A stretch of DNA of 896 nucleotides, from NCBI RefSeq assembly GCF_003334765.1, contig NZ_QOWT01000094.1; one strand, 5' to 3'. The translations under genes and the position numbers were made by a program. This document shows positions 19-896 of the stretch, piece after piece. How positions within the stretch are numbered: position 1 is the first letter of the stretch; each line of letters begins with the position of its first letter. Under the pieces are notes generated by a model, which was given only the letters and a program-made list of their open reading frames with translations, ran no database searches and had not been told where the DNA came from. The stretch is from Escherichia coli (lineage in GTDB: Bacteria > Pseudomonadota > Gammaproteobacteria > Enterobacterales > Enterobacteriaceae).

Positions 19-94
19 GCCCGGATAGCTCAGTCGGTAGAGCAGGGGATTGAAAATCCCCGTGTCCTTGGTTCGATTCCGAGTCCGGGCACCA
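19..94 (+). tRNA. pheV: tRNA-Phe (anticodon GAA), complete 76 nt with encoded 3' CCA; enterobacterial pheV/pheU type
   Basis: Read directly: GCCCGGATAGCTCAGTCGGTAGAGCAGGGGATTGAAAATCCCCGTGTCCTTGGTTCGATTCCGAGTCCGGGCACCA. The 7-bp acceptor stem GCCCGGA/TCCGGGC pairs, the D-loop has AGCTCAGTCGGTAGAGC, the anticodon loop is flanked by stem GGGGA/TCCCC with GAA at 52..54, and the T-arm has GGTTCGATTCC. From memory this matches E. coli tRNA-Phe. pheV and pheU are identical in sequence, so the symbol is ambiguous between the two loci. Confidence 0.95.
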
Positions 95-105
95 AATTCA
101 TATCA

Positions 106-131
106 ACGGACCTCCACGGAGGTCCGTTTTT
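106..131 (+). terminator. Rho-independent terminator of the tRNA-Phe transcript
   Basis: A perfect GC-rich inverted repeat, CGGACCTC (107..114) pairing with GAGGTCCG (119..126) around a 4-nt loop, is followed immediately by TTTTT (127..131). It lies 12 nt downstream of the tRNA 3' CCA. Confidence 0.7.
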
Positions 132-137
132 CATTCC

Positions 138-161
138 AGGACGCCACGATTTAAGCGTCCT
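138..161. repeat. Inverted repeat (7-bp arms, 10-nt spacer) in the tRNA-integrase intergenic region; possible protein-binding site or RNA hairpin
   Basis: AGGACGC (138..144) and GCGTCCT (155..161) are exact reverse complements separated by CACGATTTAA. No T-tract follows, so it is not a typical intrinsic terminator. Confidence 0.35.
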
Positions 162-223
162 GCCTCCAAATCAATTCTACCGAACTCAACCAGATTCCCC
201 CCACATCAACCTCATTGTGTGGG

Positions 224-229
224 TATAAT
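224..229 (+). promoter_or_regulatory. Candidate sigma70 -10 hexamer (TATAAT) for the integrase gene
   Basis: A perfect TATAAT at 224..229 lies about 62 nt upstream of the integrase ATG. No convincing TTGACA-like -35 is seen at 17-bp spacing (CCACAT at 201..206 is a poor match). The call rests on the -10 element only. Confidence 0.3.
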
Positions 230-280
230 TGTGGGCATACCCCAGTTCGACAGAATTTGTACCCTCTTTAACGCATTCAG

Positions 281-285
281 AAGGC
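281..285 (+). promoter_or_regulatory. Ribosome-binding site (Shine-Dalgarno-like AAGG) for the integrase
   Basis: AAGG at 281..284 sits 7 nt upstream of the ATG at 292, which is acceptable SD spacing. Confidence 0.5.
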
Positions 286-291
286 TGAACT

Positions 292-896
292 ATGGCACTG
301 ACTGACGCAAAAATCCGGGCAGCAAAGCCTACTGACAAGGCTTATAAACTCACTGACGGGGCTGGCATGTTCCTGCTGGTACATCCTAATGGTTCCCGTT
401 ACTGGCGTCTCCGTTATCGTATTCTGGGTAAGGAGAAGACTCTGGCACTTGGTGTGTATCCAGAAGTTTCTCTCTCCGAAGCTCGTACAAAACGGGATGA
501 GGCCCGAAAACTGATTTCAGAGGGGATTGACCCTTGCGAACAGAAAAGAGTTAAAAAAGTAGTCCCTGATTTACAGCTCTCTTTTGAACATATTGCACGA
601 CGCTGGCATGCCAGTAATAAACAATGGGCACAATCACACAGCGATAAAGTACTCAAAAGCCTCGAGACACACGTTTTCCCCTTTATCGGCAACCGGGATA
701 TCACAACACTCAATACCCCGGACCTGCTTATCCCTGTTCGTGCTGCAGAAGCAAAACAAATTTATGAAATCGCTAGTCGTCTGCAGCAAAGAATATCTGC
801 TGTAATGCGTTACGCCGTACAGTCTGGCATCATCAGATATAACCCGGCTCTGGATATGGCTGGTGCATTGACCACGGTAAAACGCCAGCATCGCCC
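292..896 (+). CDS. int: Site-specific tyrosine recombinase, P4-type integrase (phage integrase family), N-terminal ~201 aa; 3'-partial, continues beyond the window
   Basis: Hand translation in frame 1 from ATG 292 has no stop through 896: MALTDAKIRAAKPTDKAYKLTDGAGMFLLVHPNGSRYWRLRYRILGKEKTLALGVYPEVSLSEARTKRDEARKLISEGIDPCEQKRV...ARRWHASNKQWAQSHSDKVLKSLETHVFPFIGNRDITTLNTPDLLIPVRAAEAKQIYEIASRLQQRISAVMRYAVQSGIIRYNPALDMAGALTTVKRQHR. The N-terminus (LTDxxIRAAKP...Y.L.DG.G.L.V...GS..W...YR) is the hallmark arm-binding domain of P4-like integrases such as the E. coli CP4-57 IntA type; the Y..R.R motif (YWRLRYR) and the SLS.AR and RLQQR...MRYAV segments also fit that family. Position directly downstream of a tRNA gene on the same strand is the canonical arrangement. 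The ORF is missing from the supplied track, most likely because it has no stop inside the window. Confidence 0.9.
   Translation, partial: MALTDAKIRAAKPTDKAYKLTDGAGMFLLVHPNGSRYWRLRYRILGKEKTLALGVYPEVSLSEARTKRDEARKLISEGIDPCEQKRVKKVVPDLQLSFEHIARRWHASNKQWAQSHSDKVLKSLETHVFPFIGNRDITTLNTPDLLIPVRAAEAKQIYEIASRLQQRISAVMRYAVQSGIIRYNPALDMAGALTTVKRQHR

What the first reader, a model, noticed from the sequence alone, without database searches (positions are those of the whole stretch)
292..896. Integrase reading frame is uninterrupted and has its own expression signals, so the element may still be mobilisable
Many island-associated integrases at tRNA loci are decayed by frameshifts, stops or IS insertions. 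Here the first ~201 codons are intact, preceded by an SD-like AAGG and a perfect TATAAT. The catalytic C-terminal domain (R-K-H-R-H-Y residues) lies beyond the window, so functionality cannot be concluded.
Basis: partly seen in the sequence, partly recalled or inferred. Interest (0 to 1): 0.35.

Follow-up and report, generated by a model that had tools for sequence, protein, structure and literature searches.

The report
Known intact pheV-island integrase gene
This is the start of the well-known P4-type integrase gene next to the pheV tRNA gene in most pathogenic E. coli; it is intact and probably active at a low level, which is normal for this gene and already published.

Summary
ATG 292 opens a stop-free frame of 201 codons to the window end (chance about 4e-5). 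AAGG lies 7 nt upstream and TATAAT at 224-229.

The window is 100% identical to the pheV junction of E. coli 55989 and O104:H4. There the gene runs to 420 aa, has all three P4-integrase domains, and keeps R238, K277, H341, R344, H368 and Y378.

It is the published intP4 gene of GI-pheV (Nhu et al. 2024). It differs by 1 nt in 896 from the left end of PAI V of UPEC 536, whose integrase (418/420 aa identical) is reported to excise that island at 1e-5 to 1e-6.

The 110.5-kb island keeps attL (23 bp), attR (22 bp), paired 12-bp-phased arm-type repeats on both arms, and an AlpA-family gene. It has no annotated transfer genes.

The TATAAT sits at the junction of two arm repeats. It aligns with the annotated -10 of the P4 int promoter, and no good -35 is present. 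I infer a weak promoter that Int itself represses.

About 61% of complete E. coli genomes carry the gene, and dN/dS among alleles is 0.05-0.07, so an intact copy is the rule. Verdict: interpretation supported, ordinary and already known.

The parts
19..94 (+). pheV, the tRNA-Phe(GAA) gene
   Evidence: ARAGORN and Rfam tRNA at 68.3 bits. The flanking gene yqgA identifies it as pheV in 55989 and K-12.
72..94 (+). attL core: the last 23 bp of pheV (TTCGATTCCGAGTCCGGGCACCA). It is repeated as a 22-bp attR, lacking one G, 110.5 kb downstream.
   Evidence: attR lies at L006:40329-40350 and is followed by the native K-12 sequence downstream of pheV. The same boundaries are published.
105..132 (+). 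Island-borne intrinsic terminator (10-bp GC-rich stem, 4-nt loop, T-run). It replaces the native pheV terminator and insulates int from tRNA read-through.
   Evidence: Terminator scan. The fold is -17.6 kcal/mol with z = -5.0. K-12 has a different hairpin after pheV. The hairpin is invariant in 5 alleles.
200..205 (+). Position equivalent to the -35 (CCCACA, 3 of 6 to TTGACA, 18-bp spacer). It aligns with the P4 Pint -35, TTGAAA.
   Evidence: Alignment with P4 and the P4 annotation. It fails the promoter scan. This part is inferred only.
218..239 (+). Two tandem, 12-bp-phased arm-type repeats (TGTGGGTATA at 218-227 and TGTGGGCATA at 230-239), the presumed P' arm binding sites for the Int N-terminal domain
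   Evidence: The pattern matches twice against 0.09 expected. A similar phased pair (TGCGGGTATA, TGAGGGTACA) lies 53-74 bp from attR. They align with the annotated P4 attP arm repeats. Int binding was not tested.
224..229 (+). TATAAT, the candidate -10 of the int promoter, formed by the junction of the two arm repeats
   Evidence: It aligns exactly with the annotated -10 of the P4 int promoter, CATAAT. It is invariant in 5 alleles.
258..267 (-). Inverted arm-type repeat (AGAGGGTACA, 1 mismatch). Its position matches the inverted P4 repeat just upstream of int.
   Evidence: One search found 4 matches at up to 1 mismatch against 0.69 expected, reached by 1 of 200 shuffles.
281..284 (+). Shine-Dalgarno-like AAGG, 7 nt upstream of the ATG
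   Evidence: invariant in 5 alleles. It is a weak 4-nt match; its function is inferred.
292..896 (+). 5' 605 nt (codons 1-201 of 420) of the intP4 integrase gene of GI-pheV. The full gene is 1263 bp in 55989.
298..549 (+). Arm-type DNA-binding domain (Pfam PF13356, aa 3-86)
   Evidence: Pfam E = 1.9e-29. PDB 3ju0 and 3jtz match.
583..867 (+). Core-binding central domain (Pfam PF22022, aa 98-192)
   Evidence: Pfam E = 2.4e-27. PDB 2kkv matches at E = 1.2e-31.

Best explanation
The window holds the left junction (attL) of the pheV genomic island GI-pheV and the first 201 codons of its P4-family tyrosine integrase, intP4. This is the 55989 / O104:H4 allele, group intP4.5, and it is nearly identical to the PAI V integrase of UPEC 536.

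Shown here:
- The gene is intact (420 aa) in genomes identical to the window.
- It has the arm-binding, core-binding and catalytic domains and the conserved active-site residues.
- It is under strong purifying selection.
- The island still has both core repeats, arm-type repeat pairs on both arms, and an AlpA-family gene.

Inferred mechanism: int is transcribed separately from pheV, because an island-borne terminator lies between them. Transcription starts from a weak promoter whose -10 (TATAAT) is built from the junction of two tandem Int arm-binding sites. Int occupancy would therefore repress its own promoter, as described for P4 and for other tRNA-adjacent integrases. The resulting low Int level, together with an AlpA-type directionality factor and host bending proteins, would recombine attL with attR at low frequency. 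Near-identical PAI V536 does this at about 1e-5 to 1e-6, releasing a circle and restoring an empty pheV. The island has no annotated transfer genes, so moving to another cell would need a helper such as a conjugative plasmid.
For: - Identity: the window is 100% identical to 55989, O104:H4 and other genomes.
- Intactness: the CDS is 420 aa and annotated intact.
- Domains: PF13356, PF22022 and PF00589.
- Relatives: 54-55% identity to P4 Int.
- Active site: R238, K277, H341, R344, H368 and Y378 are conserved with P4 Int and IntA. K277 aligns with lambda K235 and H368 with lambda H333.
- Selection: dN/dS is 0.05-0.07 among five alleles.
- Island ends: attR is a 22-bp repeat followed by the K-12 flank, and the boundaries are published.
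- Arm repeats: phased pairs lie on both arms, collinear with P4 attP.
- Promoter: the P4 Pint -10 aligns with the TATAAT. The intergenic signals are invariant in five alleles.
- Insulation: a terminator lies between pheV and int.
- Directionality factor: an AlpA-family gene lies in the island.
- Experimental relative: the window differs from PAI V536 by 1 nt in 896, Int is 418/420 identical, and the attR core is the same. PAI V536 is reported to excise through its own integrase at 1e-5 to 1e-6.
- Autoregulation precedent: negative autoregulation of P4 int and of same-orientation tRNA-adjacent int genes is reported.
Against: - No excision or expression data exist for this island in 55989 or O104:H4. 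The literature search returned only the comparative paper.
- The promoter has no recognisable -35, and a lone TATAAT is not beyond chance.
- attR lacks one G relative to attL.
- The island is 110 kb, riddled with IS elements, and has no annotated transfer genes.
- intP4 alleles track phylogroups and are said to co-evolve with the chromosome, so inheritance is mostly vertical.
- Int binding to the repeats and a role for the AlpA-like protein are inferred from homology only.
Confidence: 0.8

Rival explanations
1. The integrase is intact, but this island is effectively fixed in the chromosome. The gene would persist for another reason: recent common descent, action in trans on other islands, or serving as a landing platform for new modules. 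This 110-kb island would not excise at a meaningful rate.
For: - intP4 alleles follow phylogroups and the islands are said to co-evolve with the core genome.
- attR has a 1-nt deletion.
- The island carries many IS elements and pseudogenes and no transfer genes.
- int is equally conserved in Sakai SpLE3, which has no attR at all.
- Cross-talk between integrases of different islands is reported.
Against: - The same 22-bp attR is present in PAI V536, which is reported to excise.
- The arm-repeat pairs on both arms are still intact.
- dN/dS of 0.05-0.07 shows the protein is kept functional.
- The attR lacking one G is shared by several allele groups, so it is more likely the native attP sequence than decay.
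Confidence: 0.15
2. The TATAAT is only the junction of two Int arm-binding sites and is not a promoter element. int would be transcribed from somewhere else, or only when an activator is present.
For: The scan finds no sigma-70 promoter. A hexamer alone is expected by chance in about 28% of shuffles. The position equivalent to the -35 reads CCCACA. AlpA activates intA transcription in CP4-57, as cited.
Against: The hexamer aligns with the annotated -10 of the P4 int promoter and is invariant in five alleles. A strong terminator blocks read-through from pheV, and no other candidate promoter was found in 95-291.
Confidence: 0.25
3. The gene is a decayed pseudogene beyond the window, with a frameshift, a stop or an IS insertion in the catalytic half.
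For: None found. It was a legitimate possibility from the window alone.
Against: In every genome examined that matches the window, the CDS is full length (420-421 aa) and not flagged as a pseudogene. All catalytic residues are present. The exact 420-aa protein is on record on at least 1000 contigs.
Confidence: 0.02

Closest known systems
intP4 (allele group intP4.5) of GI-pheV, E. coli 55989 / O104:H4 (Nhu et al. 2024, PLoS Genet, PMC11537424)
   Same: The sequence is identical across the whole window. The island boundaries, 110,510-bp size and attR are the same as published.
   Different: Nothing differs; this is the same object. The paper does not discuss the promoter or the arm-site layout.
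Integrase of PAI V536 (pheV island of uropathogenic E. coli 536)
   Same: It differs by 1 nt in 896 across the window, and Int is 418/420 identical. The attL and the 22-bp attR core are the same, and the attR arm is 95% identical. It is reported to excise at 1e-5 to 1e-6 through its own integrase.
   Different: The cargo and size differ (48.8 kb against 110.5 kb). The 536 protein has K277R and K405R. One attR-side arm repeat differs (TGCGGGTACA in 536, TGCGGGTATA in 55989).
Satellite phage P4 Int and attP
   Same: The three-domain architecture is the same, with 54-55% identity. It also attaches to the 3' end of a tRNA gene. The order core, conserved spacer blocks, tandem 12-bp arm repeats, inverted repeat, int is collinear. 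The -10 of Pint lies at the junction of the tandem repeats. Negative autoregulation by Int is reported.
   Different: P4 integrates at leuX rather than pheV. Its repeat consensus is TGGGGGCA rather than TGNGGGYA. P4 has a good -35 (TTGAAA) where this element has CCCACA. P4 is a replicating, helper-exploiting satellite with Vis as its directionality factor. This island has none of those genes annotated.
CP4-57 IntA and AlpA (E. coli K-12, ssrA)
   Same: IntA belongs to the same integrase family (36% identity, catalytic residues aligned). The island encodes a 68-aa AlpA-family protein (Pfam PF05930, E = 5e-9; 25% identical to AlpA).
   Different: The attachment site differs. In CP4-57 alpA lies about 1.2 kb from intA, whereas here the AlpA-like gene is about 94 kb from int. 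Its role in excision is untested.
[quoted passage not shown]
   Same: From the literature and my own recall: it is inserted at pheV, has a P4-type int next to the tRNA, carries pic and an Ag43-like gene, and excises site-specifically with an AlpA-like factor (Sakellaris et al. 2004, cited). The 55989 island also carries pic and agn43.
   Different: It was not compared by sequence here, because no Shigella genome is in the collections used. It is much smaller, about 46 kb from recall.

Membership tests
Tyrosine recombinase (Pfam PF00589 catalytic domain) | Catalytic residues R...K...H-x-x-R...H...Y | tested here: met
   These lie beyond the window, so they were tested on the full gene of the 100%-identical 55989 locus. 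R238, K277, H341, R344, H368 and Y378 are invariant against P4 Int and IntA. R238, H341, R344 and H368 are also invariant against lambda Int, and K277 aligns with lambda K235. PF00589 matches aa 211-383 at E = 5e-17. The assignment of K277 rests on a 22%-identity alignment.
Tyrosine recombinase (Pfam PF00589 catalytic domain) | Uninterrupted full-length reading frame | tested here: met
   The window holds 201 open codons. The full CDS is 420 aa and is not flagged as a pseudogene.
P4-type (arm-binding, DUF4102-type) integrases | N-terminal arm-type DNA-binding domain followed by the central core-binding domain | tested here: met
   PF13356 matches aa 3-86 (E = 1.9e-29) and PF22022 matches aa 98-192 (E = 2.4e-27). 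Both lie inside the window. The PDB domains 3ju0 and 2kkv match.
P4-type (arm-binding, DUF4102-type) integrases | Clear full-length sequence similarity to P4 Int | tested here: met
   tblastn gives 55.4% identity over 97% of the query, E = 2e-153. MAFFT gives 54%.
P4-type (arm-binding, DUF4102-type) integrases | Attachment core is the 3' end of a tRNA gene, with int next to it in the same orientation | tested here: met
   pheV lies at 19-94 and int starts at 292, both on the + strand. The 23-bp core is repeated at the far end of the island.
P4-type (arm-binding, DUF4102-type) integrases | Arm-type repeats on both sides of the core that bind the Int N-terminal domain | tested here: inconclusive
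   Phased repeat pairs are present on both arms and are collinear with the annotated P4 repeats. The search pattern was derived from these same sequences, and protein binding cannot be tested with these tools.
NCBIfam NF007246 (PRK09692 integrase) | Score at or above the curated cut-off of 434 bits | tested here: not met
   The score is 251.5 bits, E = 1.1e-74. The protein is related to that specific model but is not a member of it.
GI-pheV intP4 (Nhu et al. 2024) | P4-type integrase gene immediately 3' of pheV, at least 94% nucleotide identity to the intP4 alleles | tested here: met
   yqgA-pheV-int synteny is present. The window is 100% identical to 55989. The protein is 97-99% identical to the CFT073, Sakai, H10407 and S88 alleles. 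55989 is named as a typical intP4.5 island.
Excision-competent genomic island | Flanking direct repeats (attL and attR) | tested here: met
   attL is 23 bp and attR is 22 bp with one G missing. The same attR is found in PAI V536, which excises.
Excision-competent genomic island | A recombination directionality factor is encoded | tested here: inconclusive
   A 68-aa AlpA-family protein is encoded at L006:24205-24411 (PF05930, E = 5e-9). Its function is untested.
Excision-competent genomic island | Detectable circular form and empty attB site | not testable with these tools
   This needs PCR or read-level data from cultures. No report for 55989 or O104:H4 was found.
Self-transmissible element (ICE or satellite phage) | Conjugation genes, or replication and packaging genes | tested here: not met
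   No relaxase, type IV secretion, capsid or P4 alpha/sid/psu genes are annotated anywhere in the 110-kb island. Only a ColE1-type RNAI remnant is present. This test relies on annotation alone.

The most novel reading that the evidence does not exclude
The int promoter -10 is built from the junction of two Int arm-binding sites, an arrangement kept from phage P4 to every intP4 allele. The integrase is the only gene conserved in all pheV islands. It stays under strong purifying selection (dN/dS about 0.06) even in lineages such as O157:H7 Sakai that have lost attR and so cannot excise. That would suggest selection keeps Int for something other than moving its own island. One option is a standing capture platform that recruits new modules at pheV, such as the defence cluster next to int. 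Another is action in trans on other islands.
Probability: 0.15. Interest if true: 0.35.

Novelty: already known. Interest (0 to 1): 0.08.

Why it matters
GI-pheV carries major virulence cargo in the O104:H4 outbreak lineage: the Pic protease, two type VI secretion systems and Ag43. An intact integrase with intact attachment sites means the island can in principle be lost, or passed on with helper elements. This is established knowledge for this island family. A near-identical integrase in UPEC 536 has been shown experimentally to excise its island, so the finding adds nothing new. The one modest addition here is the sequence-level reading that the -10 hexamer lies at the junction of two arm-type repeats, as in P4. 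That predicts self-repression of int and can be tested directly.

Tried and rejected
- The sigma-70 promoter scan of the window found no promoter, so the promoter call rests on homology with P4, not on consensus.
- A PDB sequence search with the single protein and with a profile found only the arm-binding and core-binding domains of relatives. No catalytic domain of a close relative is solved. The catalytic lysine was therefore assigned from an alignment with lambda Int, not from a structure.
- I did not run structure prediction. It would not give residue-level superposition with these tools, and the question is peripheral.
- NCBIfam gave only a below-cut-off match.
- A literature search for excision of the 55989 or O104:H4 pheV island returned only the comparative genomics paper.
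- The primary papers on she PAI and SRL Rox are not held. Hochhut et al. 2006 was used only through papers that cite it.
- An upstream alternative start was rejected because an in-frame TGA lies at 286-288.
- The pseudogene hypothesis was rejected.
- Read-through from pheV as the source of int transcription is unlikely because of the terminator at 105-132.
- The Rfam scan of the window found only the tRNA.

Full report
**Observation**

The window holds tRNA-Phe(GAA) at 19-94 on the + strand. An ATG at 292 opens a frame with 201 sense codons to 894, plus two more bases to the window end. An in-frame TGA at 286-288 makes this ATG the first possible start, and the other five frames of 292-896 carry 3-17 stops. 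The chance of such an open frame is 3.6e-5 from base composition, and 6 of 200,000 shuffles were open.

AAGG lies at 281-284, 7 nt before the ATG. TATAAT lies at 224-229. A lone TATAAT is not beyond chance, since 57 of 200 shuffles contain one. The sigma-70 scan reports no promoter because no acceptable -35 exists.

**Identity**

The window is 100% identical to the pheV junction of E. coli 55989, the O104:H4 outbreak strains and others. At least 80% of it is present in 3397 of 5426 complete E. coli genomes.

In 55989 the order is yqgA, pheV, then a 1263-bp CDS annotated as an intact tyrosine recombinase. Its 420-aa product has the Arm-DNA-bind_3, Phage_int_M and Phage_integrase domains. The first two domains lie inside the window.

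It is 54-55% identical to P4 Int over its full length and 36% identical to K-12 IntA. R238, K277, H341, R344, H368 and Y378 are invariant in that alignment. In an alignment with lambda Int, K277 pairs with K235 and H368 with H333. That alignment is only 22% identical, so the lysine assignment is tentative.

**The island**

Island DNA runs from pheV to just before yghD. At its right end is TTCGATTCCGAGTCCGG-CACCA, the last 23 bp of pheV minus one G. The native K-12 sequence downstream of pheV follows directly.

This matches the published 55989_GI-pheV: 110,510 bp with the same attR. The same paper names intP4 as the only gene conserved in all pheV islands and cites 55989 as a typical intP4.5 island.

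The cargo includes pic, two type VI secretion clusters, agn43, many IS fragments and a defence cluster. No conjugation, replication or packaging genes are annotated.

A 68-aa AlpA-family protein is encoded about 16 kb from attR (PF05930, E = 5e-9). It is a candidate directionality factor.

**Attachment-site anatomy and the promoter**

Two 12-bp-phased repeats, TGTGGGTATA and TGTGGGCATA, lie at 218-227 and 230-239. The pattern was expected 0.09 times in the window. A similar phased pair (TGCGGGTATA, TGAGGGTACA) lies 53-74 bp inside attR. An inverted copy with one mismatch lies at 258-267.

Phage P4 has the same layout in its annotation: tandem 12-bp arm repeats on both sides of the core and an inverted copy at the int start. 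A direct alignment of pheV-attL-int with P4 attP-int is collinear.

In the P4 record the int promoter -10 (CATAAT) lies at the junction of the two tandem repeats. It aligns base for base with the TATAAT here. The P4 -35 (TTGAAA) aligns with CCCACA.

The whole 197-bp spacer is 98% identical among five intP4 alleles, and the repeats, the TATAAT and the AAGG are invariant.

A strong island-borne hairpin with a T-run at 105-132 replaces the native pheV terminator. It should block read-through from the tRNA.

P4 Int is reported to repress its own promoter by binding there. Integrase genes in the same orientation next to a tRNA gene, with promoters overlapping attL, were shown to be negatively autoregulated. 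A PAI I536 integrase behaves the same way.

I therefore infer a weak, self-repressed int promoter. This step is inferred, not shown.

**Is the integrase functional?**

Pairwise dN/dS among five alleles is 0.05-0.07, so the protein is maintained by selection. At least 80% of the gene is present in 3297 of 5426 complete genomes. The exact protein is on record on at least 1000 contigs. An intact copy is the norm for this gene, not a surprise.

The window differs by a single synonymous base from the left end of PAI V of UPEC 536. The two integrases are 418/420 identical, and the attR core is the same. Papers citing Middendorf 2004 and Hochhut 2006 report that PAI V536 deletes at 1e-5 to 1e-6. [quoted passage not shown] This is the strongest available support that the protein encoded here is active.

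The attR lacking one G is shared across several allele groups. It is therefore probably the native attP sequence rather than decay. Since attL keeps GGG and attR has GG, strand exchange must lie 3' of the G run, within GGCACCA. This is my inference.

**Limits**

No excision or expression data were found for the 55989 / O104:H4 island itself. The alleles track phylogroups, which points to mostly vertical inheritance. The island has no annotated transfer genes. 'Mobilisable' is therefore supported as low-frequency excision only.

**Verdict**

The object is the published intP4 of GI-pheV, so it is already known and of low interest. The only small addition is the reading that the -10 hexamer is formed by two arm-type Int sites, as in P4, which predicts self-repression.

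Noticed in passing
window 105-132: The island brings its own strong intrinsic terminator for pheV (-17.6 kcal/mol, z = -5). It replaces the native K-12 hairpin, which now sits 110 kb away behind attR. The hairpin is invariant in five intP4 alleles.
   Followed up: yes
window 314-326 versus 84-96: TCCGGGCAGCAAA, inside int codons 8-12, matches the 3' end of the attL core plus 2 nt (TCCGGGCACCAAA) at 12 of 13 positions. It may be chance or a secondary core-like site.
   Followed up: no
L012 (E. coli 536 PAI V int), codon 277; same codon in L001:20292-21554: The 536 integrase has Arg where 55989, four other alleles, P4 Int and IntA all have Lys277. This residue aligns with the lambda Int catalytic K235. 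Yet PAI V536 is reported to excise through its own integrase. Either the lysine assignment is wrong or Arg is tolerated.
   Followed up: partly
L001:22401-22730 (55989, about 0.9 kb downstream of int): This is a remnant of a ColE1-type plasmid origin inside the island. Rfam RNAI matches at 59.9 bits at 22582-22687, next to a 48-aa 'replication initiation protein' fragment.
   Followed up: partly
L001:23765-34528: An anti-phage defence cluster lies close to int. It holds a DrmD-like SNF2 helicase, IetA and IetS, and a type III restriction-modification pair (PADLOC E-values from 1e-105 down to 0).
   Followed up: partly
window 95-896 and the full int gene (L001, L008-L011): Divergence between alleles rises with distance from pheV. 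The spacer differs by about 2-5%, synonymous divergence is 0.035-0.15 in codons 1-201, and it is 0.14-0.27 over the whole gene. This could reflect homologous recombination seeded in the conserved tRNA flank, or constraint on the att arm.
   Followed up: partly
L006:40255-40276 versus L013 (536 attR arm): In 536 the junction of the two attR-side repeats reads GGGTACAAAAGAGGG, against GGGTATAATTGAGGG in 55989. The repeat cores are kept but the TATAAT-like junction is not.
   Followed up: no
window 374-383: A fourth, weaker arm-type match (TGCTGGTACA, 1 mismatch) lies 83 nt into int. P4 also has an annotated arm repeat inside its int gene.
   Followed up: no
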